64,000 nucleotides of DNA from NCBI GenBank assembly GCA_963558795.1, contig CAUWIH010000001.1, forward strand, positions 3,546 to 67,545, given 5' to 3'. Both the position numbers and the translations under genes were made by a program. Each line of letters starts with the position of its first letter. The first letter of the stretch is position 1. Below, piece by piece: positions 23,942-62,934 of the stretch. The stretch comes from an uncultured Megamonas sp. (lineage in GTDB: Bacteria > Bacillota > Negativicutes > Selenomonadales > Selenomonadaceae). Below the pieces are notes generated by a model. The model made no database searches. It was not told where the DNA came from and saw only the letters and a list, made by a program, of their open reading frames with translations.

Positions 23942-23973
23942 TAGACTATTTTATTATTTTGGAGAAAAGTTTT

Positions 23974-25050: not shown

Positions 25051-25091
25051 TAAATATAAAAAGTTAAATAAAATAAAATTTGAGGTGTAAA

Positions 25092-49119: not shown

Positions 49120-49935
49120 TTAACCTCTAGTTTTTCCACCAGCTACATTGAATGTAACACCATGAACATAAGAAGCACGATGGCTACTTAAAAACATTAC
49201 CATATCAGCAACTTCGGAAAGTTTACCATCACGACCAAGTGGTGTGGTTTTTGTACTTGTATAATCGGCACGAAGTTGTTCAACTGTTATACCACGAGTA
49301 TACGATAAAGCTTCTTCATAATTTAATGTGCGAAGACCAGTAGCTTCTAAAATACCAGGGGCAACGCCGACAACACGCACATTATATTTTCCTAATTCTT
49401 TTGCCCAAGAACGAGTGAAAGAATTTACAGCGTTTTTAGTTGCAGCATAAATACTTTGTCCTTCAGAGCCTTCAAGACCACTTTCAGAAGACATGTTGAT
49501 GATAACACCTTTGCCATTTTGAACAAATTCATGACCTAAAGCTTGAGCACAAAGATATACACCTTTGATATTTACTGCAGAAACTTTATCAAATACAGCA
49601 TCATCTAATTCATATTTACCATACGGATCATTTTTATCAACTAAAAGACGAGGAATATTAATACCAGCATTATTTACTAAAATGTCTAATTTACCAAATT
49701 TAGCTTTAGCGGCATTGACCATATTTTTTACGCTTTCGGATTTAGTTACATCAGTAATTACATAAAGAAATTCTCCACTACCTTCATGTAAATCATATTC
49801 TGGAGTTTGTGGATTCATATCACAAACTACTACATTTGCACCATTATCCAAGAATGCTTGAACTACAGCTTTACCAATACCTGATGCACCACCAGTAACT
49901 ACAGCTGTTTTACCTTCAAGATCTAACCATGACAT
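49120..49935 (-). CDS. srlD: Sorbitol-6-phosphate 2-dehydrogenase (SDR)
   Basis: TGGASGIG, NNAGINIPRLLVD, SSESGLEGSEGQS.YAATK; last gene of the glucitol PTS operon. Confidence 0.92.
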   Translation of the reverse strand: MSWLDLEGKTAVVTGGASGIGKAVVQAFLDNGANVVVCDMNPQTPEYDLHEGSGEFLYVITDVTKSESVKNMVNAAKAKFGKLDILVNNAGINIPRLLVDKNDPYGKYELDDAVFDKVSAVNIKGVYLCAQALGHEFVQNGKGVIINMSSESGLEGSEGQSIYAATKNAVNSFTRSWAKELGKYNVRVVGVAPGILEATGLRTLNYEEALSYTRGITVEQLRADYTSTKTTPLGRDGKLSEVADMVMFLSSHRASYVHGVTFNVAGGKTRG

Positions 49936-49973
49936 ATAAAATCACTCCAATTAAAATTTTAAAAAAATTATAT

Positions 49974-50342
49974 TTAAGCTTTGAAAATAGCTATTTCTGT
50001 TCCAACTTCTGGAAGTGAAATAGATTTATCTTCAAGATATAAGCTACCTTCTAGAGATTCACCATCTTCGTTACTATTAAAACGTAAGGCGATATGACCT
50101 AAATTAGCAAGATTTTTTTGAACTTCAGAGCCAACGGCTACAATTTTATATTCAATATTATTAATTTGTAAAATATCACCGATTTCAATAGTATCAGTTA
50201 GATTATTACCTTTATGAATTAAACAAAATTCAGCAAGTTCAGCTGGGACATTTTCATTAAAGAGAATAATCATTTTTTCTCCAATGAAATCTTCAGCCAT
50301 AGGACCTAAATTTTTTACAATAGTAGAATAAATTTTTTGCAT
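49974..50342 (-). CDS. srlB: PTS glucitol/sorbitol EIIA
   Basis: IILFNENVP.ELAEFCLIH and NL.NLGH.ALRF motifs. Confidence 0.92.
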   Translation of the reverse strand: MQKIYSTIVKNLGPMAEDFIGEKMIILFNENVPAELAEFCLIHKGNNLTDTIEIGDILQINNIEYKIVAVGSEVQKNLANLGHIALRFNSNEDGESLEGSLYLEDKSISLPEVGTEIAIFKA

Positions 50343-50406
50343 AATATGTTTTCTCCTTAATAAAATCAGTTATTGATAATATAATATTATAAACTATAGT
50401 AAAATA

Positions 50407-51411
50407 TTAGCTTTCATATAAACCAAAGCTAGCAAGCCATGCAAGTACAACGTTGATTGGACCAGTGATGAAACGAGAATATAATACAGATGGAACACCT
50501 ACTTCAACTGTTTGAGGTTCAGCTTCAGCAAGACCAAGACCTACAGGAATAAAGTCACATGCTGCTTGAGCATTAATGGCAAATAAAGCAGGAAGTGCAA
50601 GGCTTGGAGGAATATTACCTTTACCAATTTCAACCCCAATTAATACACCAATAACTTGGGCAATAACAGCACCAGGTCCGAGGAATGGAGATAAAAATGG
50701 GAAAGAGCAAATTAATGCTAGAATAACAAGACCGATAACAGAGCCAGCAAGAGGAGTAAGAACATGAGCAATGATATCACCAATACCACTTGCCAATATG
50801 ACACCAATGAGCATGGATACAAATGCCATAAAAGGTAAAATTGTTTTTATAATAGTATCAATAGTATCACGGCCAGCTTGATATAAAGTAGCAGTGATAT
50901 ATCCCATAAATTTACCAACTTTAGCCATAAAACCTACATCAGTTTGTTCGGTGATTTTTTTGCTAGTATCGTATGTAGATTTTACATTGTCAGGTGTTTT
51001 TTCAGATTCAGCAGGTGCTACATTTGGAGTAGCTGTTGAATTGCTTAATTTAATACAATCTTCTTTTACCGCAGATACATAAATATCTTCTTTTATAAAT
51101 TTAGCCATAGGGCCACTGGCACCTGTTGGATTTAAGTTAATAGTGAAAATACGTTTTTTAGGATAAATTCCGCAACGAAGAGTACCACCGCAATCAATGA
51201 TTACACAAAGAATTTCATCTTCAGGTACGCTAGTTTTGAATCCATCAATGAGTTCACAACCTGTCATTTCAGCAATTTTTTGAGAAACTGGAGAAATAAC
51301 ACCACCTGTGATATTAACTACTTTATTCTTTTTATCATCTGGAACTAAAGTAAGCGGACCGCCGAATCCACCAGCACCAGCATTAACAACAACACTATTA
51401 TATTTAGCCAT
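50407..51411 (-). CDS. srlE: PTS glucitol/sorbitol EIIBC
   Basis: [39 protein letters not shown]. Confidence 0.94.
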
Positions 51412-51442
51412 GATAGATATCTCCTTTTATAGATAAAATAAA

Positions 51443-52000
51443 TTAAGCTTGATGAGTAGTTTTTACTTTATCGCTAAGAACTACGCCTTGTTGTTTAGAA
51501 ACATATGCAGTAGTGAAATCAGTTACTACACCGCCAATAAAGTTGATTAAAATACCGATTAAAAAATAACGAAGAGCCAAATCAACAGTAGAAAATCCAA
51601 GTTGAGTAATACCATTAGCGATACCTAAAAATACGAATAATTCACCAGGATTTACATGAGGAAATAAACCGTTTAAAGTATGACATGAACGAGATGCTGC
51701 TGCATAATAAGATGGTTTATATCTTTCTGGCATAAATTTACCTAAAGATAATGTCATTGGATTACAAAAGAAGAAAGTACCAATAACCGGTAAAATCATG
51801 TAACGAGAAAATATGTTACCAGCACAAAGATGAGCAAATTTTTCTACTTTGTCAGTACCTACAAACAATATAAGCGCATTCATAGCAACCAATAAACAAA
51901 TGAGTGTAGGTACGATGCCAGTAACAAGGCCAATAAATGTTTCACCACCCTTATTAAACATACCAATAAAACCTTGAGCCAATAATACTAAAGTGTCCAT
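51443..52000 (-). CDS. srlA: PTS glucitol/sorbitol EIIC
   Basis: [17 protein letters not shown] and [12 protein letters not shown]. Confidence 0.94.
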
Positions 52001-52033
52001 AAACTTCTCTCCTTTAATTATAAAATTTTTAAA

Positions 52034-52441
52034 TTATTGTGATGTATTATTCATACATGTGGACGCTTCTTGTTGTTGAGTATATTGCTTATATTCGTCG
52101 ACAGCAGATAAAATGGCCAATTTTGTCTGCTTATCGAAATTAAGACAATCATTTTCGGTAATATCTGGTAAATAAAGACCATTTAAATCATCAAAATTTT
52201 TGAAATTGGCAAAAGTAGTAACGCCTTGTAATTTTTTACCTTTAATGATTTTACAATTTTCGTCTATACATAATAATAATAAGCAGCCTGCTTTAAATCG
52301 TCCTCTGGCTTTGCCAATAGCAACTCGGCCAGATTGTTGAAGCTTTTTTAATTCTTTATTAAATTTTTTTAATTGAAATATATTTAATAAACCTTGAAGA
52401 AGCCACATGACAATACCTAGAACAATAAAAGTCCAAAACAA
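52034..52441 (-). CDS. gutM: Glucitol operon activator GutM/SrlM
   Basis: N-terminal TM W.LQ.LL..FQLK.F, GRVAIG and G.TTFA.F; operon position. Confidence 0.85.
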   Translation of the reverse strand: MFWTFIVLGIVMWLLQGLLNIFQLKKFNKELKKLQQSGRVAIGKARGRFKAGCLLLLCIDENCKIIKGKKLQGVTTFANFKNFDDLNGLYLPDITENDCLNFDKQTKLAILSAVDEYKQYTQQQEASTCMNNTSQ

Positions 52442-52447
52442 AGGGCA

Positions 52448-53419
52448 TCACTCCTTACAGTCATCAAATTTTAATAATTTTTTAGCAGTTGTTTCATCTG
52501 TAATTAAGATATTGATTAATTTTCCTTTTAAAGCACTATAAATAGCAGGGATTTTTTCATCAAAAGCAGCAACACCAATAACATATTTTACATTATGCAA
52601 TTGAGCAAAAGGTATAGCTATAGTTCTATTTACAACTTCAGTAGGAACTTCATTACCATTTTTATCATAAAAGCGAGTACATGTTTCGCCAATAATAGCA
52701 TTACCAAAGGTAGACGTAATATATTCGGATTTTATACCATTAGTCCAAATTACATTGGAAGCAAGTGTTGGAGAACCAATACCCACAAAAGCAATATCTA
52801 AATTATCCCAAAGTTTTTGGATATTTTGATAATTTGTATCATTGATAATAGCTTGTTTCGTAGCAGGGGTTTTAGTGATTGCAGGTGCATATAAATAATG
52901 GCTTCTGGATTTGAAAGCATTGGCAACTTTATAACAAATAGTATTAGCATGAAGTTCAATATTAAGATGTTCTAAATTACCGACTTTTTCAGCACCACCA
53001 ACTAAAGGAACAAAGTCAGCTTCGACTTTAGGAAAATCTTCCAATGCTGCTTGAGCACCAATAGCGCCCATAGTACGTCCCCAGTTAAAACCAATTACCA
53101 TATTGTTTTTTATTAAACGTTTTAACATTAATAAACCGGCTTTACCCAAGTTAGAATAAACTTCATCAGGATTATTACTAGATGGAACAATGAAAACTTC
53201 TTTTAAATTAAATTTTTCTTCCAAAGCGGATTCTAAAGTTTCATAAGAATCTTGAGCGATGAATATTTTTACAATACCAGTGTCTTTGGCACGTTTTAAA
53301 TATTTACTAACAGTACTTCGGTCAATACCTAATTTTTGAGCAATTTCGCTCTGTTTCATATCGGCTTCATAATACATGTGAGATACTTTTACAAGAATTC
53401 TTCGAGATATAGGTTGCAT
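52448..53419 (-). CDS. SorC/DeoR-family sugar-binding transcriptional regulator
   Basis: MYYEADMKQSEIAQKLGIDRSTVSKYL HTH, WGRTM, GIGS, L.TDE.TA. Confidence 0.9.
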   Translation of the reverse strand: MQPISRRILVKVSHMYYEADMKQSEIAQKLGIDRSTVSKYLKRAKDTGIVKIFIAQDSYETLESALEEKFNLKEVFIVPSSNNPDEVYSNLGKAGLLMLKRLIKNNMVIGFNWGRTMGAIGAQAALEDFPKVEADFVPLVGGAEKVGNLEHLNIELHANTICYKVANAFKSRSHYLYAPAITKTPATKQAIINDTNYQNIQKLWDNLDIAFVGIGSPTLASNVIWTNGIKSEYITSTFGNAIIGETCTRFYDKNGNEVPTEVVNRTIAIPFAQLHNVKYVIGVAAFDEKIPAIYSALKGKLINILITDETTAKKLLKFDDCKE

Positions 53420-53486
53420 GATAAAAACCTCTTTCGTTTTAATAATATTTATTATTTTTATTATAAGATAAAGTAGAGAATCAAGC

Positions 53487-53561
53487 TATCGTCACATATG
53501 TGAAGATATATCTCATTTGTTCCGGCAAACATATAATAACACTAATGAAAAATACTGTCAA
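53487..53561 (-). promoter_or_regulatory. Sorbitol operon promoter and downstream palindromic operator
   Basis: Minus strand TTGACA (53561-53556), N17, TGtTATTAT (-10 at 53538-53533); TATCgTCACATATGTGAaGATA at 53487-53508. Confidence 0.7.
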
Positions 53562-53738
53562 TAAAAAATACAAAAAAACACATTAAATAAAAAATTTTGA
53601 AAATTTTAAAATAATAAAGCATATAATAAAGAAATATGTACGATTAATGCTATTCTTGACATGAAAAAATTGATGTCGTATATTATAATTAATTGTAGTT
53701 TTATTAACTAAAGTGTTAAAGTAAACGGAGTGTTTTTT

Positions 53739-54029
53739 ATGATAAATCCAAAATTAAAAGATTCATTAAATGATCAATTATGTAAAGCGGTATTAAAATT
53801 AGAAACTGTTGATGAATGTTATCAATTTTTTGAAGATATTTGTACAGTAAATGAACTAAAATCTTTAGCGCAACGTTTAGAAGTGGCAAGAATGCTTCGT
53901 GCGGGACATACTTATGAAGAAGTAGTGGAAGGTACAGGGGCTAGTACAGCTACTATTAGTAGAGTAAAACGTTGTTTAAATTATGGTGCTGATGGCTATG
54001 ACACGGTATTAAATCGTTTAGAAGAATAA
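53739..54029 (+). CDS. yerC: YerC/YecD TrpR-like DNA-binding protein
   Basis: ECYQFFEDICT..EL..LAQRL.VA.ML..G.TY..V...TGASTATISRV.RCL.YG. Promoter TTGACA-N17-TATATT at 53656-53684. Confidence 0.9.
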   Translation: MINPKLKDSLNDQLCKAVLKLETVDECYQFFEDICTVNELKSLAQRLEVARMLRAGHTYEEVVEGTGASTATISRVKRCLNYGADGYDTVLNRLEE

Positions 54030-54049
54030 AATAAAGAGACAATGAATTT

Positions 54050-54601
54050 ATGTGGCAAAGAATTATTCAGTTTTGGCGAGCAATTAATGCTAAGATAAAC
54101 TTTGAAGATAAACTTTTTATTGAAAAATATTTAAACGAGCAAGAACAAGATTTATTTTTTGCAATGCGAATATATGACCAAAGACATGTACTGAATGTAG
54201 CATATACTGCTCAAAAAATAATAAAAACAGAGCATATATTAGATATAGATGAAAGATTATTGATAAAAGCTTGTCTTTTACATGATGTAGGAAGAACAGC
54301 TCAAGATATTTGTTTATTTGATAAAATTATGAATGTGCTTTTAGGAAAATTTTTACCTCAAAAAAGTAAACAATGGAGCGAAAAAGCACAAAAATTACAA
54401 AGTGTCTTTCCTAGAAGTTTTTGGCAAAGAAGAAGATTTGCGATGTTTGTTTATTATAATCATGCTCAACTTGGTGCAAAAAAATTAGAAACAATAGGTT
54501 TAGTAGAAATCGCTAATATTATAAAATATCATCATAGTCCTTTTAATGATAATATGAAAAAGGAATTACAGATACTTTGTAGAGCTGATAGTTTAAATTA
54601 A
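54050..54601 (+). CDS. HD-domain metal-dependent phosphohydrolase
   Basis: H..NV, LLHDVG, H...GA, HH and AD motifs. Confidence 0.85.
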   Translation: MWQRIIQFWRAINAKINFEDKLFIEKYLNEQEQDLFFAMRIYDQRHVLNVAYTAQKIIKTEHILDIDERLLIKACLLHDVGRTAQDICLFDKIMNVLLGKFLPQKSKQWSEKAQKLQSVFPRSFWQRRRFAMFVYYNHAQLGAKKLETIGLVEIANIIKYHHSPFNDNMKKELQILCRADSLN

Positions 54602-54638
54602 TAATGTGATATAATATTATTTGAGAGAAAATTAAGAG

Positions 54639-55715
54639 GTGAAAATTTTGGCGAAATTAAAATATAGAGCAGGTTTAAAAGATATGCCTACATATCATGT
54701 AACAAGTAGAGATTGGAATGTAAAAGTAAATGAAAATGAATCTAATTTAAATTTACCACCACTTGTAGAAGAGCGTTTAATGGCGAGATTATCTTATATG
54801 GCATTTAATCGTTATCCTACAGAATCAGTAGAGTTACTAAGAGAACAGATTGCGGATAATTTTCGTTTGAGTAAAGATAATGTATTACTTGCTAATGGTT
54901 CAAATGAAATTTTACAAAAATTGTTTTTTGCTTTTGGTGGTAGAGCTAGAAAAGTAGTTTATCCAAATCCATCATTTTCTTTATATGAAGTACATGCCAA
55001 ATTAAGTGGTTCAACGATTGTTACGGTAGACTTAAAAGATGATTATACTTTTGATTCAGGTCGTTTCGTAGATGCTGTAAAAGAAAATAAAGCTTCTCTT
55101 GCAGTCATTTGCTCTCCGAATAATCCTACAGGTACCAAAATTCCTTTAGGTGATATTGAATATGTAGCGAGAAATATAGATTGTGCATTAGTTATAGATG
55201 AAGCTTATGTGGAATTTTCTGGTGAATCAGCAATGTGCTTTTTACAAAAATATCCACATTTAATGATAACAAGAACCTTTTCCAAAGCATATGGTTTGGC
55301 TAGTGCTAGAATAGGATATTTACTTGCTGATAAAAAGGTCATTGATATGGTAAGTAAAGCTATATTGCCGTACCATGTAAATGCTTTATCTGCTATTAGT
55401 GCAGATGTAGTATATCAATTAAGAGATGAATATATTCCACGTATTCAAATGACAATAGCTGAAAGAAAACGTCTAAGTGAGCAATTAGCTAAAATTTCAG
55501 GTGTAAAAGTATATCCGTCTGTAACAAATTTTGTGCTAATTAATTATAAAAAAGCTAAAGCTTTAAATGAGTATTTAGAAAATATTGGAATAGGTGTATG
55601 CTCTTTTGATGAAAATGCTCGTTTAGAAAATTGTTTACGTATTACAGTAGGTACAAGACAAGAGAATGATATGATTTTTAAAGCTATTGACGATTTTGTT
55701 AAATCACAAAAATAA
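54639..55715 (+). CDS. hisC: Histidinol-phosphate aminotransferase-like PLP enzyme
   Basis: NRYP, NGSNE, PNNPTG, DEAY, RTFSKAYGLASARIGY, LRITVG. Real start may be TTG 54648. Confidence 0.8.
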   Translation: MKILAKLKYRAGLKDMPTYHVTSRDWNVKVNENESNLNLPPLVEERLMARLSYMAFNRYPTESVELLREQIADNFRLSKDNVLLANGSNEILQKLFFAFGGRARKVVYPNPSFSLYEVHAKLSGSTIVTVDLKDDYTFDSGRFVDAVKENKASLAVICSPNNPTGTKIPLGDIEYVARNIDCALVIDEAYVEFSGESAMCFLQKYPHLMITRTFSKAYGLASARIGYLLADKKVIDMVSKAILPYHVNALSAISADVVYQLRDEYIPRIQMTIAERKRLSEQLAKISGVKVYPSVTNFVLINYKKAKALNEYLENIGIGVCSFDENARLENCLRITVGTRQENDMIFKAIDDFVKSQK

Positions 55716-55859
55716 TAAAAGCTAAAAGTAAAAAAAGTAAGCTATAAATTCATAGTTATGTATATTTGGTGCTTTACAAATTAATAAGTATTACAATTAG
55801 TTATTAAATATTTATCAAACTTACTTTAAGCAAGCTGATAGTTTGGGGGTTAGATTAAA

Positions 55860-56561
55860 ATGATAGATATTAATGAAATAAAATTCAACGAAAAAGGTTT
55901 AGTTCCAGTTATTGTACAAGAAGTTAACGGTGAAGTATTAATGCTCGATTATATGAATAAAGAGGCTTTACAAAAAACGATAGATACTGGAAATACTTGG
56001 TTTTATGATTGCTTGCGTAATAAGCTTTGGCAAAAAGGAACAATTTCAGGTAATAAACAAATAATTAGTGAAATTTTTTATGATTGTGATAAAAATGCTT
56101 TATTAGTAAAAGTACATCAAAATGGCGTAGCTTGTAAAACAGGAACATATAGTTGTTTTACTAATCGTAGATTATTCCCAGATGAAAAAGATTTAATTCC
56201 AGTGGCACAAGGTCAAGATAATACAGCTATTGCAAAAATATTGAACGAATTATATCAAAGAATCAAAGATTGTCAAATTCATCAAGTAAAAGGTTCGTAT
56301 ACTTATAATTTATTTAGTGAAGGACAAGACTCTGTTTTAGCTAAATTGGGAATGCAAGCGACAAAATCTGTAGTTGCCTCTAAAAATTTGGATAGAGATG
56401 AAATCCTTAGTGAAATGGGTGATTTGTGGTATCATTGTTTGATATTACTTGCATATCATAATATTACTCCTGAAGAATTACTTGCTGAACTTATGCAACA
56501 ACGACATGGTGGGAAATATCACGATTTAGATAAGCATGAATTAAAAAAATACATGGATTAA
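55860..56561 (+). CDS. hisIE: HisIE-like fusion with degenerate catalytic motifs (probable pseudoenzyme)
   Basis: Fold-level match (GLVP.IVQ, YMNKEAL, W.KG..SG, DCD, C.TG..SCF, GSYT, DL.YH) but SRSR, DxDxD, CHTG and GEEAxE are altered. Confidence 0.75.
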   Translation: MIDINEIKFNEKGLVPVIVQEVNGEVLMLDYMNKEALQKTIDTGNTWFYDCLRNKLWQKGTISGNKQIISEIFYDCDKNALLVKVHQNGVACKTGTYSCFTNRRLFPDEKDLIPVAQGQDNTAIAKILNELYQRIKDCQIHQVKGSYTYNLFSEGQDSVLAKLGMQATKSVVASKNLDRDEILSEMGDLWYHCLILLAYHNITPEELLAELMQQRHGGKYHDLDKHELKKYMD

Positions 56562-56605
56562 AATTTAGATTAAAAAGATAAATAAGTAAATAAGGTGGAT
56601 TAGTA

Positions 56606-57328
56606 ATGAGTAATGCAAGAATAGAATATATGAAAGAATCTGCATGGAAACGTGGCATGGGTAAAAAAGTGGAAAAAATACCACCTTTTGAATTACCATA
56701 TGCCAAAGATGCAGTATTGGTAGACCTTGTAGAACCAGATATTTTACCAGATAAAAATATAAATTTTTTGGAAATGGTAGAAGTTCGTTCTACAATTCGT
56801 CAATATGATGATGAGAAAGAATTAACTAATAAAGAATTATCATATTTACTTTGGTGTACTCAAGGTCTAAAAATGGTCATGCAGACAAAAACTATTCGTA
56901 ATGTACCATCAGCTGGCGGAAGAAATGCTTTAGAAACTTTCTTATATATTCGTCGTGTTGAAGGCATTAAACCGGGGTTATATCGCTTTTTACCATTAGA
57001 ACATAAGTTATTATTAGTATCTGATGCAGATGATATTGAAGAAAAAATTTGTGGTCAATTTTCTACAATTGGTGTTGCAAATAATTCTGCAGTAGTATTT
57101 TTATGGACTGCTGTATATGAAAGAATGGCTTGTATGTTTGGTGAACGTGCATATCGTTATATTTATTTAGATGCAGGTCATGTTTGTCAGAATTTATATT
57201 TAGCAGCACAGACAATGCATATAAAAGTATGTGCATTAGGTGCTTTTGATGATGAAATTTTAAATCAAAATCTTGGTTTTGATGGAGAAAATCAATTTGT
57301 TGTTTATGGTGCAGGTGTAGGAAAATAG
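56606..57328 (+). CDS. SagB/ThcOx-like nitroreductase-family oxidoreductase
   Basis: R.TIRQY, LS.LLW.TQG, R.VPSAGGR..LE, RAYRY..LDAGH..QNLYL, GAFDD. Confidence 0.85.
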   Translation: MSNARIEYMKESAWKRGMGKKVEKIPPFELPYAKDAVLVDLVEPDILPDKNINFLEMVEVRSTIRQYDDEKELTNKELSYLLWCTQGLKMVMQTKTIRNVPSAGGRNALETFLYIRRVEGIKPGLYRFLPLEHKLLLVSDADDIEEKICGQFSTIGVANNSAVVFLWTAVYERMACMFGERAYRYIYLDAGHVCQNLYLAAQTMHIKVCALGAFDDEILNQNLGFDGENQFVVYGAGVGK

Positions 57329-57341
57329 AATAAGCTAGAGT

Positions 57342-57393
57342 AAAAGAACTCAATTAAGTGATACTTATGAGTGTTACTTAATTGAGTTCTTTT
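57342..57393 (+). terminator. Intrinsic terminator
   Basis: AAAAGAACTCAATTAAGT...ACTTAATTGAGTTCTTTT, 18-bp inverted repeat. Confidence 0.8.
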
Positions 57394-57409
57394 TGTATAT
57401 AATTTAAAT

Positions 57410-57488
57410 TTTCCGCATAAAAATATAATGAGGAAATTTTTATAATATTTAAAATAAAATACAAAAATATTTCCGCATGTTGCGGAAA
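57410..57488. promoter_or_regulatory. LicR/MtlR-type PRD regulator binding sites
   Basis: TTTCCGCA-tgt-TGCGGAAA (57470-57488) and TTTCCGCA-N11-TGAGGAAA (57410-57436). Confidence 0.6.
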
Positions 57489-57553
57489 ACAATCAATCTA
57501 TGATGGATTGCTAATTTTTGATACAATTTAATCAAGTTAAGGGAGTATTGAAA

Positions 57554-59479
57554 ATGGCAAAGATTAATAAACGAAGAAAGAAAATATTTGATATGTTAAA
57601 AGAACATCAAACAGGATTGAGTGGAGAATTTATGTCTCAACAGTTAGGTGTTTCTTCAAGAACAATACGTTCAGATATAAAAGCTTTACAAGAATATTTA
57701 GTTGAATATGATATACGAATAATTTCTAGCCCTAATAAGGGATATCGCTTTAATAAATTTGAGCAACTTGATACTGCTGAACAAAATTTGTTTCAAGAAG
57801 GTGTTAGTAATTTAGAAACAGCAAAACAAAGGATAAATTATATATTGTATAGACTGTTAGAAAATACTTTTAAAGATATTGTTATTACACAAAATGATTT
57901 AGCAGAAGAAATGTATATAAGTTTATCTACATTAAAGATGCATTTAAATGAAGTAAAAGATATCTTACAAAAATATGATTTAAAAGTTACACAATATAAA
58001 ACAAAGGGTATAAAGGTTATTGGTGAAGAAGTTAAGATACGTTATTGCATAGTAGATATGATAAATACATGTAGTACAGAAAAATTTTTCCAGAAGATTT
58101 TAGCAAATGTAGATATTGAGTTATTAGATAAAATAATAAAAGAAACATTAAGTTATAAAAAAATACAATTAGCAGATAGATCTAAAGAAAAATTTTGTCT
58201 ACATATAGCAATAGGCATGCAACGTTCTAATTGTAATAAATTTGTATCCTATCCGTCTAGTATTGCTAATAAAATAGAAAATACTTTTGAATATAATGTA
58301 GCTAAAGAGTTAATAGATAATATATTAAAAAAGATGAATATAGATATAGCTTGTTCAGAAGTATATTATATTGCTCAATGCTTATTAGCTAGCAAGAAAT
58401 TAACAGATATTAGTGAATCAATGGACAAAAAACATGTAAAAAAATTAGTAAATATAATTTTAAAAGAAATTCATGAAAAGTTATCTATTGATTTTACTAA
58501 CGATGAATATTTGATTGATGGTTTAACATTACATTTAAACATAGCATTAACAAGAATTCAATTTCAGATGAATATCAGAAATGAATTGTTAGAAACTATA
58601 AAAAATGATTATCCGTTAGCATTTCAAATGGGGGTAATTGCTGGTAAAATTGTTGAACAATATGACAACATAAAAATTAATGAGAATGAAATTGGTTATA
58701 TAGCTTTACATTTTGGTGCAGCATTAAGTAGAAATGGTATAAAAGAAAATATTCAGGCTAAAAATATAATAATAGTATGCTCTTCAGGATTAGGGATATC
58801 TGTATTACTAAAGGCGAAAGTTGAAGAATATTTTCATAATAGATTAAATGTAGTAAAAGTTTTACCAGGTTATGAAGTTAATGAGAAAACACTAGAAAAT
58901 ATAGATTATATATTATCTACAGTTCCATTAAAAAATATTGCTTCAGATAAAATAATTAAAATTAATCGTATGTTACAAAAAGAAGATGTAGAAAATATTG
59001 AAAATAAGATTTTTCACAAAATAGATACAGATTTAATAGAAATTACAACTTTTTTTAATAAAGATAATTTTTATATTGATAAAGATTTTGAAACAAAAGA
59101 AGAGTGTATAAATTTTTTAGCGGATGAGGCTATAAAAAAAGATTTAATGGATGAAATGTCTAAAGAATCTATTTTTGAAAGAGAAGAGATATCATCTACA
59201 TCAATAGGTGATTTAACAGCAATACCACATCCAATATCAACAGATACAAAAAAATCTTTTATCTCTATTTTAGTATTAAATAAACCTATAATGTGGGGAG
59301 ATTTTTTAGTACAGGTTGTATTTCTATTAAATATAGAAAAATCAAAAGCTAATTTATGGGAGCCTATGTTTTTAAAATTGTATAACTATATAAAAGAAAA
59401 AAATGGAATAAATTCATTATTAAAAAATAAATCATATGATATGTTTTTAAAAGAATTTATAAGTTTTTCTCAAATATAA
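57554..59479 (+). CDS. PRD-containing PTS regulator (BglG/LicR/MtlR-like: HTH-Mga-PRD-EIIB-EIIA)
   Basis: LGVSSRTIRSDI HTH, YISLSTL, PRD His in LTLHL and IALHF, EIIB VCSSGLG, EIIA AIPHP. ATG at 57554. Confidence 0.9.
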   Translation: MAKINKRRKKIFDMLKEHQTGLSGEFMSQQLGVSSRTIRSDIKALQEYLVEYDIRIISSPNKGYRFNKFEQLDTAEQNLFQEGVSNLETAKQRINYILYRLLENTFKDIVITQNDLAEEMYISLSTLKMHLNEVKDILQKYDLKVTQYKTKGIKVIGEEVKIRYCIVDMINTCSTEKFFQKILANVDIELLDKIIKETLSYKKIQLADRSKEKFCLHIAIGMQRSNCNKFVSYPSSIANKIENTFEYNVAKELIDNILKKMNIDIACSEVYYIAQCLLASKKLTDISESMDKKHVKKLVNIILKEIHEKLSIDFTNDEYLIDGLTLHLNIALTRIQFQMNIRNELLETIKNDYPLAFQMGVIAGKIVEQYDNIKINENEIGYIALHFGAALSRNGIKENIQAKNIIIVCSSGLGISVLLKAKVEEYFHNRLNVVKVLPGYEVNEKTLENIDYILSTVPLKNIASDKIIKINRMLQKEDVENIENKIFHKIDTDLIEITTFFNKDNFYIDKDFETKEECINFLADEAIKKDLMDEMSKESIFEREEISSTSIGDLTAIPHPISTDTKKSFISILVLNKPIMWGDFLVQVVFLLNIEKSKANLWEPMFLKLYNYIKEKNGINSLLKNKSYDMFLKEFISFSQI

Positions 59480-59495
59480 GTAGGTGCATATTTTT

Positions 59496-60158
59496 ATGGA
59501 AAAAAATATAGAAATAAAAAAAGAAGTAGTATTTTATGCTAAGTTATTAGATAAAAAAGGTTTAGTTAATCCATTAGAAGGTAATATATCAATTTATGAT
59601 AGAGATAGTAATAAGTTATACATTACACCATCAGGAACAAGAAAATCTTTATTAACGGAAAGTGCTATAGCTGTTTTACAAAATGGAAAACAAATAGAAG
59701 GATATTTAAAACGTTCTAGTGAGTATTTATTACATGAAGCTGCACTAAAAGCTAGACCAGATTGTAATGCAGTAGTGCATACACATGCGCCATATTTAAC
59801 AGCTTTTGCATATTGTAATAAAGATATAAAATTACGTTGTTCATCGACATTTGCTTTATTGTTTGAAGAGATTCCATGTTTACCATATGGGCAGCCAGGA
59901 ACAAAAGATATAGCAAATGGAATTGAAGAAGCTATAAAAGAGCATGATTTGATATTACTAGGAAATCATGGTTGTTTAACAGTAGCACCCACTTTAGAAA
60001 AAGCTATAGCTATTTTAGAAGCTGGTGAAGAAGTTATGAAAATATATACAATAGCTAGCTCTATAGGAACAATAAAAGATATAGCTAATGATAAATGGGA
60101 AAAAATGTGTAATGAACATCTTGGTAGTAAAAGAAATAGGTATAAGAGAAGGGAGTGA
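59496..60158 (+). CDS. Class II aldolase/adducin-family sugar-phosphate aldolase or epimerase
   Basis: EGNIS, ITPSG, SSE..LH, HTH and NHG metal motifs. ATG at 59496. Confidence 0.85.
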   Translation: MEKNIEIKKEVVFYAKLLDKKGLVNPLEGNISIYDRDSNKLYITPSGTRKSLLTESAIAVLQNGKQIEGYLKRSSEYLLHEAALKARPDCNAVVHTHAPYLTAFAYCNKDIKLRCSSTFALLFEEIPCLPYGQPGTKDIANGIEEAIKEHDLILLGNHGCLTVAPTLEKAIAILEAGEEVMKIYTIASSIGTIKDIANDKWEKMCNEHLGSKRNRYKRRE

Positions 60159-61204
60159 AGAGAATGCAGGCTGCTATTATGTATGGACCAAATGATATAA
60201 GGGTAGAGAATATAGAAAAACCAAAGTGTCCACCAAATGGTCTAATTTTAAAAGTTTTATCAATAGGTTTATGTGGTTCAGATATTAGAAATATGACAAC
60301 AGATTCATGTAAAGGAAAATATCCACATATATTTGGTCATGAAATAGTAGGTATGGTTGATGAAATAGATATAAATACACCAAAATATAAAGTTGGAGAT
60401 AAATTATATATTTATCCTGAGGATCATTGTTTAAAATGTGATGAATGTAGAGCTGGTCATAGTGAAAATTGCTTAAATCCAGGTGATTATATTGCTAGAC
60501 AAGGTGGTTTTGCTGATTTTGTTGTTGTGACGAATAAGCAAATTAATAGAGATGCAGTCTTTAAATTACCTGAAAACATAAATTTAGATAATGCTACGCT
60601 TAGTGAACCATTATCATCAGTATATGCTTGTCAAGAAAATATTAATATTACACTAGGAGATAGTGTGGTTATTATTGGAGCAGGGCCTATAGGCTGTTTT
60701 CATGCGCAAATGGCAAAAATAAGAGGAGCTAAATGCGTTATTATGGTTGAAATTAATGATAAACGATTGGAAATGGCAAAACAGTTTGGTGTTGATTATA
60801 CTATCAATAGTTTAAAAGAAAATCCTGTAGCTAAAATAAAACAGATTACAAATAATAAAGGTGCTGATAAAGTAATATCAGCTAATCCATCAAGTAATGC
60901 TCAGGCGCAAAGTATTTTTATGGCGAAAGCTGGAGGAATAGTAGTATTTTTTGGTGGTGTTCCTAAAGGGACACTAGTTAGTTTGGATACAAATTACATT
61001 CATTATAATAATTTATGGATTTATGGTCATTTTGGAGCTAATAGTATACAAGTACAAAAAGCGTTTGAATTGGCTATTAGTAAAAATTTTCCAGCAGAAA
61101 AATTTATTACTCATGTATTGCCATTAAAAGATATTAATAAAGGTATAGAGTTAACAAAATCAGGAGAGGCTATAAAAGTAGTTTTACATCCTAATTTAAA
61201 TTAA
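60155..61204 (+). CDS. Zn-dependent polyol(-phosphate) dehydrogenase (MDR)
   Basis: GLCGSD, GHE, C..C..C.......C structural Zn, LSEP, GAGPIG. Confidence 0.88.
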   Translation: MKRMQAAIMYGPNDIRVENIEKPKCPPNGLILKVLSIGLCGSDIRNMTTDSCKGKYPHIFGHEIVGMVDEIDINTPKYKVGDKLYIYPEDHCLKCDECRAGHSENCLNPGDYIARQGGFADFVVVTNKQINRDAVFKLPENINLDNATLSEPLSSVYACQENINITLGDSVVIIGAGPIGCFHAQMAKIRGAKCVIMVEINDKRLEMAKQFGVDYTINSLKENPVAKIKQITNNKGADKVISANPSSNAQAQSIFMAKAGGIVVFFGGVPKGTLVSLDTNYIHYNNLWIYGHFGANSIQVQKAFELAISKNFPAEKFITHVLPLKDINKGIELTKSGEAIKVVLHPNLN

Positions 61205-61238
61205 TAAAAATTATAAATATTTTGAGGAGGAATTTAAA

Positions 61239-61532
61239 ATGATTAAAGGATTAGTTGCATGCGGTAGCGGAATTGCTACATCAACAGTTGCTCAGCAGGC
61301 AGTAAAAAAAATATTGGCAGATGCAGGTATTGAAGCTGATATTAGTAAAGGAAATATCACAGAAATTCCAGTAAAACAGAACACTGTAGATATTATTTTT
61401 ACAACATCTAATTATACACAACCTACAAAAGTTCCTGTAATAAAAGTTTTTGGTTTAATTTCTGGAATTGGAAAAGATAAAATTAAAGATGAAATTATTG
61501 CAGCTTGTTTAGAAATTGAAAAAAATAAATAA
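61239..61532 (+). CDS. PTS EIIB, galactitol/ascorbate family
   Basis: VACGSGIATS phospho-Cys loop. Confidence 0.88.
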   Translation: MIKGLVACGSGIATSTVAQQAVKKILADAGIEADISKGNITEIPVKQNTVDIIFTTSNYTQPTKVPVIKVFGLISGIGKDKIKDEIIAACLEIEKNK

Positions 61533-61621
61533 ATTTTTTATTTAATTATCTGAGAAGCGTTAGTTATCAAAATATTTGTTTTTTTTGAAAATTAACGCTT
61601 CTTGAAGAAAGGTTGAAGAAT

Positions 61622-62881
61622 ATGGATACGTTATTAAACATTGTTCAAACAATATTAGGTATGGGTGCTGTTGTAATATTACCTATTATGATATTTATAC
61701 TTGGACTTATTTTTAGAATGAAAATTGGTGCAGCTATTCAAGCTGGCTTAATGATTGGTATCGGTTTTCAGGGGTTATTGTTAGTTATTAATTTATTAAT
61801 GGCATCTATTGATCCTGTTGTTAAATATTATCAAAGTATGGGTAGTGGTTTTACTACTGTAGATATTGGTTGGGCTGCTTTGGGAGCAATTTCATGGACA
61901 GCACCATTTGCCCCACTTGCAGTACCACTTATTATTTTAGCTAATGTTATTTTAATAAAAGTTGGCTTAACAAAAGTAATGAACGTAGATATGTGGAACT
62001 ATATTCATTTCTTAATTCCAGGTGCAGTAGCTTATGCTTTATTTGATAGTGTTATTTTAGGATTAGTTATTACAGTTGGTTTATCTATTTTAGCTTTATT
62101 TATTGCTGAAAAAGTAGCTCCTCATTGGGAAAAAGTTTTTGGTTTAGAAGGTACAACTTGTACTTGTATGTCATTCATTAGTTATATGTGGCCATTATCA
62201 ATAATTATTAATAAAATTATTGATTGTATTCCAGGGTTAAATAAATTTGATTTAGATTTGACAAAATTACAATCTAAAATTGGATTTTTTGGTAATCCAG
62301 CATTTATAGGGTTAATTGTAGGTATTTTATTAGGTATTATAACAGAACAACCAATTACAACAATTACTACTATTGCAATGGGTCTTGCTAGTGTACTTTT
62401 ATTAATCCCAAGAATGGTTGCAGTAATGATGGAAGGTTTATCTTCTATTGGTACAGCTGCAAATGATTTTATGCAAAAACATATTGCTAAAGACGCACAA
62501 TTATGGATTGGTATGGATGTATGTTTAGGTTTAGGTCATCCAACTTGTATCGTATGTACTGCACTTTGTATTCCATTTACAATTTTATTAGCATTTATTA
62601 TTCCTGGAATGACATTTTTCCCAATCGGTTTATTAACAAGTATTTGTTATATAACTGTTATGTGTGTAATGGCAAGTAATGGTAACTTAGTTCGTTCATT
62701 AATTTGTTCAATGGTAAGTATTGTTTTAATTACTTGGGCAGCAAATACTTTTGCGCCAGAGGCAACAATGATGTTAAAAGCATTAGGTGTTCCAGTTGAA
62801 GGTATGATAACAGAAGGTGGACATTTTGGTTTTAATTTACCAGTAGTTATTATAAGTGCTATTTCTAGAATTTTAGGATAA
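61622..62881 (+). CDS. PTS EIIC, galactitol (GatC) family
   Basis: IGIGF.G, VDIGW, NVDMWNY.H, EG.T, IGMD...GLGHP motifs. ATG at 61622. Confidence 0.88.
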   Translation: MDTLLNIVQTILGMGAVVILPIMIFILGLIFRMKIGAAIQAGLMIGIGFQGLLLVINLLMASIDPVVKYYQSMGSGFTTVDIGWAALGAISWTAPFAPLAVPLIILANVILIKVGLTKVMNVDMWNYIHFLIPGAVAYALFDSVILGLVITVGLSILALFIAEKVAPHWEKVFGLEGTTCTCMSFISYMWPLSIIINKIIDCIPGLNKFDLDLTKLQSKIGFFGNPAFIGLIVGILLGIITEQPITTITTIAMGLASVLLLIPRMVAVMMEGLSSIGTAANDFMQKHIAKDAQLWIGMDVCLGLGHPTCIVCTALCIPFTILLAFIIPGMTFFPIGLLTSICYITVMCVMASNGNLVRSLICSMVSIVLITWAANTFAPEATMMLKALGVPVEGMITEGGHFGFNLPVVIISAISRILG

Positions 62882-62934
62882 TAAAATTTTTTATAGGCTA
62901 ATAGTTTTAAGTCTATTATGTGAGGTTTATATGA

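What the first reader, a model, noticed from the sequence alone, without database searches (positions are those of the whole stretch)
55860..56561. HisIE with both active sites dismantled but the ORF intact: candidate pseudoenzyme or sensor
Cyclohydrolase half: YSRSR is YDCLR, KGETSG is KGTISG, the Mg-binding DxDxD is DCDKN and CHTG is CKTG, while the three Zn cysteines remain. Pyrophosphohydrolase half: the metal-binding K-GEEA-E is K-GMQA-K and DRK is DCQ. Hydrophobic core positions, length and RBS are preserved with no frameshift. Changes concentrated at catalytic positions suggest a repurposed protein, for example a PR-ATP/PR-AMP or Zn sensor partnering YerC, rather than random decay (inference).
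Basis: partly seen in the sequence, partly recalled or inferred. Interest (0 to 1): 0.7.

Follow-up and report, generated by a model that had tools for sequence, protein, structure and literature searches.

The report
Dead HisIE kept in eroded operon
A gut Megamonas bacterium has deleted seven of its histidine-synthesis genes but kept, expressed and conserved a copy of the HisIE enzyme whose catalytic residues are gone, so the protein very probably has a new, non-catalytic job that is not yet known.

Summary
ORF 55860-56561 (233 aa) is a full-length HisIE homologue. It differs from the family at nine near-invariant functional positions: SRS→DCL, D79N, general-base His→Lys, R138C, and EE..E→MQ..K. 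The three Zn cysteines, W57/K59 and E185/D188 remain.

Context explains the origin. The window comes from a Megamonas lineage whose ancestral operon, hisR-hisZ-HD-hisG-D-C-B-H-A-F-IE-nitroreductase, lost hisZ, hisGD and hisBHAF by three clean deletions. What remains is hisR(yerC)-HD-hisC-hisIE*-nitroreductase behind the old promoter.

It is not a decaying pseudogene. Two lineages about 80% identical in DNA share the changes. Omega in this clade is 0.086, and omega=1 is rejected at p=3e-33. A neutral simulation gives P(no stop)=0.009. There are no indels, and metatranscriptome contigs cover the gene.

A similar dead HisIE sits next to hisC in Phascolarctobacterium-like and other Negativicutes contigs.

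Best reading: a pseudoenzyme relic with a conserved scaffold, possibly a partner of HisC. Its actual function is unknown.

The parts
53656..53684 (+). Sigma-70-like promoter (TTGACA-17-TATATT) of the remnant operon
   Evidence: Consensus scan, 11/12 match. The -35 hexamer is invariant in remnant and canonical Megamonas loci. A metatranscriptome contig starts at 53706, with no coverage at 53541-53681.
53696..53715 (+). Candidate HisR (YerC) operator TAGTTTTATTAACTAAAGTG
   Evidence: Positional homologue of the HisR site aattttcgtaagttaaagtg predicted upstream of hisR in three Megamonas genomes (PMC9413887 supplement). The right half-site TAAAGTG is invariant in all six aligned loci. Unique in the window. 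The degenerate motif alone is not above chance, so this is inferred.
53739..54029 (+). hisR / yerC, TrpR-family histidine repressor (96 aa; the ORF listing also gives an upstream GTG at 53730)
   Evidence: Pfam Trp_repressor 109 bits; TIGR02531 YerC/YecD 146.6 bits. 87% identical to L016 HisR. 100% identical in DNA to lineage 2.
54031..54067 (.). Junction where hisZ (about 1.2 kb in canonical Megamonas) is missing
   Evidence: blastn blocks of window against L016. Contigs of the remnant form skip L018 6206->7656. No hisZ match in the window.
54050..54601 (+). HD-domain phosphohydrolase, the unnamed '?' gene of Selenomonadaceae his operons
   Evidence: Pfam HD 49 bits. Sits between hisZ and hisG in L010, L012, L016 and L018. 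64% identical to L016. Pairwise omega about 0.2.
54605..54627 (.). 23-nt filler where hisG-hisD (about 2.0 kb) is missing
   Evidence: blastn blocks. Read laying joint 7979->9981 with the letters TGTGATATAATATTATTTGAGAG in between, in three runs. Those letters are read in the window.
54648..55715 (+). hisC, histidinol-phosphate/aromatic-type aminotransferase, apparently intact (355 aa from TTG 54648; GTG 54639 is also possible)
   Evidence: TIGR01141 hisC 299 bits against a cutoff of 276.55. The PLP-lysine motif FSKAYGLA is present. Pairwise omega 0.025.
55716..55840 (.). 125-nt spacer where hisB-hisH-hisA-hisF (about 2.75 kb) is missing. Its 3' part is about 40 nt identical between lineages.
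   Evidence: blastn blocks: homology to L016 resumes 19 nt upstream of the hisIE start. Spacer alignment shows a 25-nt indel and a conserved 3' part. No terminator is predicted here.
55860..56561 (+). hisIE*, a catalytically degenerate HisIE. PRA-CH half is residues 1-105, linker 106-125, PRA-PH half 126-233.
   Evidence: as set out in the observation check and the full report.
56606..57328 (+). SagB-type nitroreductase-family protein, conserved last gene of Selenomonadaceae his operons
   Evidence: Pfam Nitroreductase 82 bits; TIGR03605 131 bits. Downstream of hisIE in L008, L010, L012, L016 and L019. 89% identical to L016. Pairwise omega 0.04.
57345..57390 (+). Intrinsic-terminator-like hairpin (20-bp stem) followed by a T-run, closing the five-gene unit

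Best explanation
ORF 55860-56561 is the HisIE gene of a Megamonas lineage whose histidine operon has eroded.

**Origin.** Three gene-precise deletions removed hisZ, hisG-hisD and hisB-hisH-hisA-hisF. Left behind is hisR(yerC)-HD-hisC-hisIE*-nitroreductase, behind the ancestral promoter and probable HisR operator.

**Loss of catalysis.** With no substrate supply and no use for its product, HisIE lost the residues that carry out both reactions:
- the general base, His→Lys;
- the N1-phosphoribosyl site, SRS→DCL;
- one Mg ligand;
- Arg138;
- the first-helix Glu ligands of the pyrophosphatase metal site.

**Retention.** The protein did not then decay. Its dimeric two-domain scaffold, including the Cys3 Zn site, has been kept by purifying selection through the split of two lineages that are now about 80% identical in DNA. 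It is co-transcribed with hisC and the nitroreductase.

**Conclusion.** It therefore acts as a pseudoenzyme: a folded, expressed, non-catalytic HisIE. Its remaining function depends on its structure, meaning binding a partner or a small ligand, not on PR-ATP/PR-AMP turnover. My preferred but unproven sub-hypothesis is that it is a structural or regulatory partner of HisC, the gene it is repeatedly retained with.

**What is shown and what is inferred.** Shown: homology, residue changes, deletions, selection, transcription. Inferred: loss of activity, HisR control, and the nature of the remaining function.
For: **Homology and fold.**

**Residue changes.**
- Changes are shared by window, P0001 and P0002 and absent from 56-66% identical Selenomonadaceae HisIE.
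- The family-wide near-invariance of those positions is shown.
- Residue roles come from the MtHISN2 structure paper (PMC8102479): SRS and WTKGETS are phosphate sites; D125/127/129 bind Mg; C126/142/149 bind Zn; H143 is the general base and H143E is inactive; E214/E234/D237 form the PRA-PH metal site.

**Operon erosion.**
- The canonical order is seen in L010, L012, L016, L018 and L019 and in three named Megamonas species (PMC9413887 supplement).
- The remnant order is seen in the window and L001-L007, L026-L028.
- The bioA-bioD-bioY flank is the same.
- Deletion borders are mapped.
- No other his gene lies in the 64 kb.
- Run X5 holds the remnant at depth 55-65 and no Megamonas-type hisZ/G/D at 80% identity or more.

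**Selection.**
- Branch-model omega is 0.014 in the background, 0.086 in the degenerate clade and 0.16 on the stem.
- Omega=1 is rejected in the clade (2dlnL=144, p=3e-33) and in each half separately (p=7e-10 and 9e-25).
- Pairwise NG86 omega is 0.12 at dS 0.77.
- P(no stop) under neutrality is 0.009.
- All 20 listed cluster members are 233 aa.
- There are no indels in the ORF, while the adjacent spacer has a 25-nt indel.

**Expression.** Metatranscriptome contigs span hisC-hisIE*-nitroreductase.

**Recurrence.** Other dead HisIE genes sit next to hisC in L030/L031 (hisR-hisC-hisIE*) and L032 (hisD-hisC-hisIE*).
Against: - No biochemical data. Loss of activity is inferred from residues only.
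- I could not scan the whole genome, so a foreign (xenologous) his operon elsewhere is not excluded.
- Omega in the clade is about six times the canonical background, so constraint is relaxed as well as retained.
- In L032 the neighbouring HisC has itself lost its PLP lysine. This fits 'slow joint decay' at least as well as 'HisC partner'.
- Recurrence with hisC is subject to ascertainment: lineages that lost hisIE are invisible to my search.
- The HisR operator is inferred from positional homology only.
- No partner or ligand is identified.
Confidence: 0.6

Rival explanations
1. Neofunctionalised enzyme. The retained Cys3-Zn site, W57/K59 adenine contacts and newly fixed residues (D50, C51, T61, I62, K93, C138) form a new active site. 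It would act on a different purine or nucleotide substrate that lacks the N1-phosphoribosyl group.
For: - The Zn cysteines and the adenine/N9-side contacts are kept, while the N1-phosphoribosyl side (SRS, Mg site) is the part rebuilt.
- The new residues in the HisI half are invariant across both lineages.
- There was a burst of amino-acid change on the stem (dN 0.19), followed by constraint.
Against: - The general base is gone, and H143E abolishes activity in MtHISN2.
- Stem omega is 0.16. It is not above 1, and it is not distinguishable from the clade value.
- The independent relics P0217 and P0213 lost the Zn cysteines altogether yet are retained in the same context.
- The former HisE metal positions vary between lineages, as expected for relaxed sites.
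Confidence: 0.15
2. Ordinary pseudogene: a neutral relic of the lost pathway that has simply not yet been disrupted.
For: - The pathway genes around it are deleted.
- Catalytic residues are lost.
- Omega is six times the canonical background.
- In L032 the neighbouring hisC has also lost its catalytic lysine.
Against: - Omega=1 is rejected at p=3e-33.
- P(no stop | neutral) is 0.009 within the clade and 0.0009 since the canonical relative.
- No indel in 702 nt, while the adjacent spacer has one.
- 20 of 20 listed variants are full length.
- Conserved structural positions are almost untouched, 1 of 21.
- The gene is transcribed.
Confidence: 0.05
3. One reading: a PR-ATP/PR-AMP (or Zn) sensor that works with YerC.
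For: - It is co-transcribed with yerC/hisR.
- The Zn site and the adenine contacts are retained.
- AMP is known to bind both domains of a plant HisIE as a regulator.
Against: - hisG and hisZ are deleted, so PR-ATP and PR-AMP should not be made.
- The phosphate-binding SRS became acidic/hydrophobic DCL.
- For HisR, histidine was the most effective of the effectors tested (PMC9413887).
- Relics in other lineages lost the Zn ligands.
Confidence: 0.05
4. The reading frame is kept for cis reasons only. It would avoid polarity on the downstream nitroreductase, or preserve embedded DNA signals such as the perfect antisense promoter at 56249-56276.
For: - The gene lies between hisC and a strongly conserved nitroreductase, with no terminator in between.
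- A 12/12 antisense promoter motif lies inside it. It was improved by the very codon changes R138C and D130E.
Against: Cis constraints would forbid stops but not missense changes. The observed omega of 0.05-0.11 in both halves shows that the amino-acid sequence itself is constrained along the whole gene.
Confidence: 0.05
5. Still an active HisIE with unusual residues, serving a his pathway encoded elsewhere.
For: - It scores above the NCBIfam HisIE equivalog cutoff.
- Purifying selection is present.
- The whole genome could not be inspected.
Against: - Nine near-invariant functional residues are replaced, including the general base.
- Seven pathway genes are deleted from the ancestral locus.
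- No Megamonas-type hisZ/G/D is found in a metagenome where the organism has depth of about 60.
Confidence: 0.03

Closest known systems
Bifunctional HisIE (NCBIfam NF002747; structures 6J22/6J2L of Shigella flexneri, 7BGM/7BGN of Medicago HISN2)
   Same: Same two-domain architecture, length and predicted fold. Same Cys3 Zn site, W/K adenine contacts and second-helix E..D metal ligands. Orthologous by synteny to the HisIE of other Megamonas (66% identity).
   Different: The general-base His, the SRS phosphate site, one Mg ligand, Arg138 and the E-E..E metal ligands are replaced. The substrate-producing and product-consuming genes are deleted. Evolution is about six times faster at non-synonymous sites.
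HisZ, the catalytically dead HisRS paralogue that regulates ATP-phosphoribosyltransferase (established knowledge)
   Same: An enzyme-derived protein of the histidine system, kept for a non-catalytic role and encoded in the his operon.
   Different: HisZ is an ancient paralogue with a known partner (HisG) in a working pathway. This is an orthologue that lost catalysis recently, inside a genus, after the pathway itself was deleted. Its partner, if any, is unknown.
HisR (YerC) regulons of histidine auxotrophs (PMC9413887)
   Same: hisR is retained and probably autoregulated in a genome without the biosynthetic operon. hisR-hisC operons are described there for Synergistetes.
   Different: That work lists hisXYZ* and hisR as the regulon of auxotrophs. 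A retained, degenerate hisIE is not mentioned there, and the three Megamonas genomes it analysed have the full operon.
Relic genes of eroding pathways in host-associated bacteria (general pseudogene decay)
   Same: The origin is the same: loss of a biosynthetic pathway in a gut-associated lineage, with the catalytic residues mutated.
   Different: Typical relics show stops, frameshifts and omega near 1. This one has omega 0.086 and no stop or indel across lineages about 80% identical in DNA, and it is transcribed.

Membership tests
HisIE (functional phosphoribosyl-AMP cyclohydrolase / phosphoribosyl-ATP pyrophosphatase) | PRA-CH + PRA-PH domain architecture and fold | tested here: met
   Pfam PF01502 at 94 bits and PF01503 at 49 bits. 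NF002747 at 210.9 bits against a cutoff of 187. Foldseek top hits are 6J22, 7BGM, 1ZPS and 1YVW.
HisIE (functional phosphoribosyl-AMP cyclohydrolase / phosphoribosyl-ATP pyrophosphatase) | Three Zn-binding cysteines of the cyclohydrolase | tested here: met
   C76, C92 and C99 are present and invariant in the clade.
HisIE (functional phosphoribosyl-AMP cyclohydrolase / phosphoribosyl-ATP pyrophosphatase) | General-base histidine next to the second Zn cysteine (CHTG; H143 of MtHISN2, H143E inactive) | tested here: not met
   K93 in the window. His is found in 145/149 representatives.
HisIE (functional phosphoribosyl-AMP cyclohydrolase / phosphoribosyl-ATP pyrophosphatase) | Mg-binding Asp triad DxDxD | tested here: not met
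   D75, D77 and N79 in the window (N75/D77/N79 or D79 in relatives). The third Asp is D in 143/149 of the family.
HisIE (functional phosphoribosyl-AMP cyclohydrolase / phosphoribosyl-ATP pyrophosphatase) | SRS phosphate-binding motif for the phosphoribosyl group | tested here: not met
   DCL (DCS in lineage 2), against S 144/148, R 143/147 and S 128/148.
HisIE (functional phosphoribosyl-AMP cyclohydrolase / phosphoribosyl-ATP pyrophosphatase) | PRA-PH metal ligands: E-E..E on the first helix plus E..D on the second | tested here: not met
   M165, Q166 and K169 replace three Glu (each 95% or more conserved). E185 and D188 are kept.
HisIE (functional phosphoribosyl-AMP cyclohydrolase / phosphoribosyl-ATP pyrophosphatase) | Pathway context: hisG upstream supply, hisA/hisF downstream use | tested here: not met
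   These genes are deleted from the ancestral locus and absent from the 64 kb. No Megamonas-type copies are found in run X5. The whole genome was not inspected.
HisIE (functional phosphoribosyl-AMP cyclohydrolase / phosphoribosyl-ATP pyrophosphatase) | Catalytic activity on PR-ATP / PR-AMP | not testable with these tools
   Needs an enzyme assay or complementation.
Pseudoenzyme (catalytically dead homologue kept for another role) | Clear homology to an enzyme with loss of essential catalytic residues | tested here: met
Pseudoenzyme (catalytically dead homologue kept for another role) | Purifying selection after the loss of the catalytic residues | tested here: met
   Omega is 0.086 in the clade that shares the changes. 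Omega=1 is rejected at p=3e-33.
Pseudoenzyme (catalytically dead homologue kept for another role) | Expression | tested here: met
   Contigs of metatranscriptomic runs X27 and X30 cover the gene at 95-99% identity or more. One contig spans hisC to the nitroreductase. DNA carry-over cannot be fully excluded, and no protein-level evidence exists.
Pseudoenzyme (catalytically dead homologue kept for another role) | A demonstrated non-catalytic function (partner or ligand) | not testable with these tools
   No interaction or binding data. Co-retention with hisC in three contexts is only suggestive.
Pseudogene | Disrupted frame, or omega near 1 | tested here: not met
   No stop or indel. Omega=1 is rejected. 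Neutral P(no stop)=0.009.

The most novel reading that the evidence does not exclude
Gut Negativicutes that give up histidine synthesis repeatedly keep a HisR-controlled pair, hisC plus a catalytically dead hisIE. This is seen in Megamonas, in a Phascolarctobacterium-like lineage, and probably in others.

The reading is that the HisIE scaffold has a second, structure-based role that predates pathway loss, for example stabilising or regulating HisC, which the cell still needs. That would make HisIE a moonlighting protein whose hidden function only shows once catalysis becomes dispensable.
Probability: 0.25. Interest if true: 0.75.

Novelty: new variant of a known kind. Interest (0 to 1): 0.6.

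Why it matters
Automatic annotation will call this protein an active HisIE, because it passes the NCBIfam equivalog cutoff. That would wrongly score these Megamonas as histidine prototrophs in metabolic models of the gut microbiome.

Biologically, it is a clean natural experiment. Catalysis was made useless by deletion of the rest of the pathway, yet the protein stayed under selection. That points to an unrecognised non-catalytic role of the HisIE scaffold, one that can be tested directly (partners, ligands, knock-out).

The recurrence next to hisC in other Negativicutes suggests the effect is general, not a curiosity of one strain.

Tried and rejected
1. **Searching GTDB genome contigs for the window's own species.** I used HisIE*, the three-sequence alignment, HisC, HisF and RecA as queries. 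The species itself never appeared; the closest were an uncultured Megamonas sp. and M. hypermegale.
2. **Laying runs on the M. hypermegale operon L019 at 80% identity.** This gave only short, noisy matches from other taxa. I replaced it with the AT-rich Megamonas locus L018.
4. **YN00 in Biopython.** It failed on most pairs. I used NG86, LWL85, pairwise ML and my own GY94-F3x4 branch model instead.
5. **Rfam scan of 52000-58000.** It found no T-box, riboswitch or leader, only sub-threshold chance hits.
6. **Metagenome scan for DNA of the second degenerate clade (P0217/P0303/P0304).** It returned no close relatives, and L030 and L031 are identical in the gene. No dN/dS could be computed for that clade.
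7. **An apparent 'divergent island' in the 3' half of hisIE* between the two lineages.** This turned out to be the normal baseline divergence between them (about 80%). It is the flanks that were homogenised by recombination.
8. **Literature searches** for a HisIE pseudoenzyme or for Megamonas histidine auxotrophy found nothing relevant beyond PMC9413887.
Full report
**1. The object.** The window has an ORF at 55860-56561 on the + strand: ATG start, 233 codons, a GGGGG ribosome-binding site about 10 nt upstream. It matches Pfam PRA-CH (94 bits) and PRA-PH (49 bits). It also passes the NCBIfam equivalog model for bifunctional HisIE, at 210.9 bits against a cutoff of 187. An AlphaFold model built on 121 homologues (mean pLDDT 78) finds HisIE 6J22/6J2L, plant HISN2 7BGM/7BGN, HisI 1ZPS and HisE 1YVW as its best PDB matches.

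**2. The residue changes.** I aligned the protein with its nearest database relatives. The window protein, P0001 (97% identical) and P0002 (83%) share a set of substitutions. These are absent from the next relatives, which are ordinary Selenomonadaceae HisIE at 56-66% identity.

I then compared with 150 representatives of the whole family, from an exhaustive HMMER search. The window differs at nine near-invariant positions:

| Window | Family residue (count) |
|---|---|
| D50 | S (144/148) |
| C51 | R (143/147) |
| L52 | S (128/148) |
| N79 | D (143/149) |
| K93 | H (145/149) |
| C138 | R (142/150) |
| M165 | E (140/146) |
| Q166 | E (139/146) |
| K169 | E (141/144) |

The structure paper on Medicago HISN2 (PMC8102479) assigns the roles:
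- SRS and WTKGETS bind the two phosphoribosyl groups.
- The Asp triad binds Mg.
- Three Cys bind the catalytic Zn.
- The His after the second Cys is the general base; H143E has no detectable activity.
- E214, E234 and D237 (with E217) form the relevant pyrophosphatase metal site.

By that map, the window protein has lost the general base, the SRS site, one Mg ligand and the first-helix Glu ligands. It keeps the Zn cysteines (C76, C92, C99), W57/K59/G60/S63 and E185/D188.

E61 is only 112/147 in the family, and it is Ala in the closest active Megamonas enzymes. Position 78 is not conserved.

Counting fixed differences between the degenerate clade and canonical relatives gives 6 of 19 conserved functional positions changed, against 1 of 21 other conserved positions (Fisher p=0.04). 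The claim that changes are concentrated at catalytic positions is therefore supported, but modestly. The clearer statement is that functional positions now change as freely as average positions (24% of the remaining positions changed), while structural positions stay fixed.

**3. Where it comes from.** The neighbours are a TrpR-family YerC protein, an HD-domain protein, HisC and a SagB-type nitroreductase.

Contigs carrying canonical relatives show the ancestral Selenomonadaceae operon: yerC-hisZ-HD-hisG-hisD-hisC-hisB-hisH-hisA-hisF-hisIE-nitroreductase. This is seen in L010, L012, L016, L018 and L019. The closest of these, L016, has the same bioA-bioD-bioY left flank as the window lineage.

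HisC of the window is 75% identical to an uncultured Megamonas sp. and 72% to M. hypermegale. The supplement of PMC9413887 lists the full operon hisR-hisZ-?-GDCBHAF(IE) for M. funiformis, M. hypermegale and M. rupellensis. The window therefore comes from another Megamonas lineage.

blastn of the window against L016 gives four collinear blocks: yerC, HD, hisC, and hisIE plus nitroreductase. They are separated by short fillers where genes are missing:
- 54031-54067, where hisZ was;
- 54605-54627, where hisG-hisD was;
- 55716-55840, where hisB-hisH-hisA-hisF was.

Homology resumes about 20 nt upstream of each retained start codon, so each survivor kept its ribosome-binding site. Public assemblies show the same thing independently. 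Contigs of the remnant form 'skip' 1449 and 2001 bases of the canonical Megamonas locus, and the 23 letters between are exactly those of the window.

No other his gene is detectable anywhere in the 64 kb. The rest of the window is ordinary core chromosome.

**4. Is the pathway elsewhere in the genome?** I could not read the whole genome. The species never appeared in the genome collection.

The indirect evidence comes from read depth in public runs:
- Run X5 has the remnant form at depth 55-65, and no contig matches Megamonas-type hisZ, hisG or hisD at 80% identity or more.
- Run X12 has the remnant at 14.9 and a canonical Megamonas at about 3.
- Run X15 has both at about 100.

The two forms therefore belong to different genomes that sometimes co-occur. 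A foreign, more divergent his operon cannot be excluded.

**5. Selection.** The remnant occurs in two lineages: lineage 1 (window, L005, L027) and lineage 2 (L001, L026). Where recombination has not homogenised them, they are only about 80% identical in DNA. Both share the deletions and the active-site changes, so everything since their split is evolution after inactivation.

Results:
- Pairwise NG86 gives dN 0.089, dS 0.77 and omega 0.12 for hisIE*. Both halves are constrained.
- My own GY94-F3x4 branch model on nine sequences (best topology puts the degenerate clade as sister to the L008/L016 Megamonas) gives omega 0.014 for canonical branches, 0.086 within the degenerate clade and 0.16 on the stem (dN 0.19).
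- Omega=1 in the clade is rejected with 2dlnL=144 (p=3e-33). It is also rejected for the HisI half alone (p=7e-10) and the HisE half alone (p=9e-25).
- The stem cannot be distinguished from 1 (p=0.053) or from the clade value.
- Placing the observed 111 differences at random gives a 0.009 chance of no internal stop. The chance is 0.0009 for the 184 differences from L016.
- There is no indel in the ORF, while the adjacent spacer has a 25-nt indel.
- All 20 listed members of the two protein clusters are 233 aa.

It is not ordinary pseudogenisation. Constraint is nevertheless about six times weaker than in active HisIE.

**6. Expression and regulation.** A consensus-like promoter (TTGACA-17-TATATT, 53656-53684) precedes yerC. 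A strong terminator-like hairpin (57345-57390) follows the nitroreductase. No terminator is predicted between hisC and hisIE*.

In metatranscriptomic run X27, one contig begins at 53706, just after the predicted -10, with no coverage immediately upstream. Another contig runs from inside hisC through hisIE* and the nitroreductase. Run X30 has contigs inside hisIE*. Contigs cannot exclude DNA carry-over, so I treat this as good but not final evidence of transcription as one unit.

YerC is HisR, the histidine-responsive repressor of Firmicutes (PMC9413887). Its predicted site in Megamonas is aattttcgtaagttaaagtg. The window has TAGTTTTATTAACTAAAGTG at the homologous place (53696-53715), and the right half-site is invariant in all loci. 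The degenerate motif is not enriched in the window, so HisR control of the remnant is an inference.

**7. The same thing elsewhere.** Among the 150 family representatives, a few others have many changed functional positions.
- P0217 has lost the Zn cysteines, the KGxxSG loop and the Glu ligands, with in-frame deletions. With its relatives P0303 and P0304 (75-76% identical, all about 203 aa), it is nearest to canonical Phascolarctobacterium HisIE at 57%. It lies in hisR-hisC-hisIE* (L030, L031).
- P0213 lies in hisD-hisC-hisIE* (L032). There the HisC has itself lost the PLP lysine, FSAAY instead of FSKAY.
- P0155 is a further degenerate Selenomonadaceae protein on a short contig.
- P0264 has a dead HisI half and an intact HisE half, and sits next to purine-salvage genes.

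The Megamonas and Phascolarctobacterium-like cases are independent. They nest in different families and have different synteny.

Caveats: lineages that lost hisIE entirely are invisible to this search, and I could obtain no DNA to compute dN/dS for the second clade.

**8. Interpretation.** The sequence of events is clear:
1. The pathway was lost by deletion.
2. The catalytic residues of the now useless HisIE were replaced during a burst of amino-acid change.
3. The fold, the dimer-forming N-terminal strands, the Zn site and the C-terminal helices were then held by selection.

That is the signature of a pseudoenzyme. What it does is not shown.

A new catalytic activity using the retained Zn is possible. 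It is weakened by the loss of the general base and by the Zn-less relics in other lineages. Cis-only explanations (polarity, embedded signals) do not account for constraint on missense changes.

The repeated pairing with hisC and hisR suggests a role tied to HisC. In the window, HisC is intact and strongly constrained (omega 0.025). But the dead HisC of L032 shows this cannot be the whole story. I put 0.6 on 'selected, non-catalytic HisIE relic' and about 0.25 on the specific HisC-partner version.

**9. Novelty and verdict.** Literature searches found no report of a degenerate HisIE or of this Megamonas operon erosion. Pseudoenzymes and pathway erosion are known kinds of things, so this is a new variant, not a new category.

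It matters in practice because annotation pipelines will name it an active HisIE. It matters conceptually because it exposes a probable hidden function of the HisIE scaffold. Interest 0.6.

Noticed in passing
window 56249-56276, minus strand (inside hisIE*): A perfect sigma-70 consensus on the antisense strand: TTGACA, 16-nt spacer with TG, TATAAT (12/12). Canonical Megamonas have TTGACG ... TATAAA here. The codon changes R138C (CGT→TGT) and D130E (GAT→GAA) are what make it perfect. TTGACA is kept in both degenerate lineages.
   Followed up: partly
window 54050-54601 (HD-domain gene); also L010 3550-4095, L016 3584-4135: An HD-domain phosphohydrolase sits between hisZ and hisG in all Selenomonadaceae his operons seen (the '?' of PMC9413887). 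No histidinol-phosphate phosphatase gene is evident in those operons, so it is a candidate for that missing step. It is retained in the remnant with omega of about 0.2.
   Followed up: no
window 56606-57328; L010 10818-11558; L016 10715-11440: A 240-aa SagB-type nitroreductase-family gene is the conserved last gene of the his operon across Selenomonadaceae. It stays under strong constraint in the remnant (omega 0.04, 89% identical to L016). Its link to histidine metabolism is unexplained.
   Followed up: no
window about 55786-55830 (3' part of the hisC-hisIE* spacer): About 40 nt (GTATTACAATTAGTTATTAAATATTTATCAAACTTAC) are identical between lineages whose baseline DNA identity is about 80%. 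The stretch contains TACAAT and the palindrome TAAATATTTA. It may be an internal promoter or operator created after the hisB-F deletion.
   Followed up: no
window 53739-57328 compared with L001 7905-11448: DNA identity between the two remnant-bearing lineages is mosaic: 100% over yerC and most of HD, 87-96% in hisC, 79-81% in the 3' two-thirds of hisIE*, 93-100% in the nitroreductase, and 63-83% downstream. The remnant operon has been exchanged by recombination between otherwise divergent lineages. P0130 is a protein-level recombinant.
   Followed up: partly
window 49120-53419 (minus strand) and 57518-63381: A glucitol/sorbitol PTS operon (GutM, EII-GUT, SDR dehydrogenase) lies between bioY and yerC in the window, L005, L026 and canonical L018, but not in L001 or L016. 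A PRD/Mga-type regulator with PTS EIIB/EIIC/EIIA genes follows the nitroreductase in the window, L001 and L026, but not in L005 or L027, where rpe-tal-recA follow directly. The flanks of the remnant are variable islands.
   Followed up: no
L005 11578-12272 compared with L027 4578-5273: The ribulose-phosphate 3-epimerase downstream of the nitroreductase is split into two ORFs (93 + 128 aa) in L005, L006 and L007, but is one 231-aa ORF in L027 and L028. This is a likely frameshift pseudogene in some strains, and a contrast to the always-intact hisIE*.
   Followed up: no
L032 549-1850: The HisC-like gene next to the degenerate HisIE P0213 has lost the PLP Schiff-base lysine (FSAAY) and the NPxNPTG motif (NPHNLLG), yet is an intact 433-aa ORF. 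This is a second apparently dead enzyme in the same relic.
   Followed up: partly
L033 3911-4546 (P0264): A HisIE homologue with a degenerate cyclohydrolase half (SRS→DKE, His→Lys as in the window) but a canonical pyrophosphatase half. It is encoded after a phosphoribosyltransferase and a GMP-synthase-like gene, not in a his operon.
   Followed up: no
Proteins P0003, P0140-P0152 (canonical Megamonas cluster); L016 10001-10702: The closest active-looking Megamonas HisIE, in a full operon, has KGATSG or KGVTSG instead of KGETSG. One variant seen on five contigs (P0142) is frameshifted at residue about 162. This may be early erosion in that species too.
   Followed up: no
window 22856-26123: Three tandem radical-SAM genes of the CofH/MqnC type, likely futalosine-pathway menaquinone genes. 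This is ordinary, but the triple arrangement was not examined.
   Followed up: no
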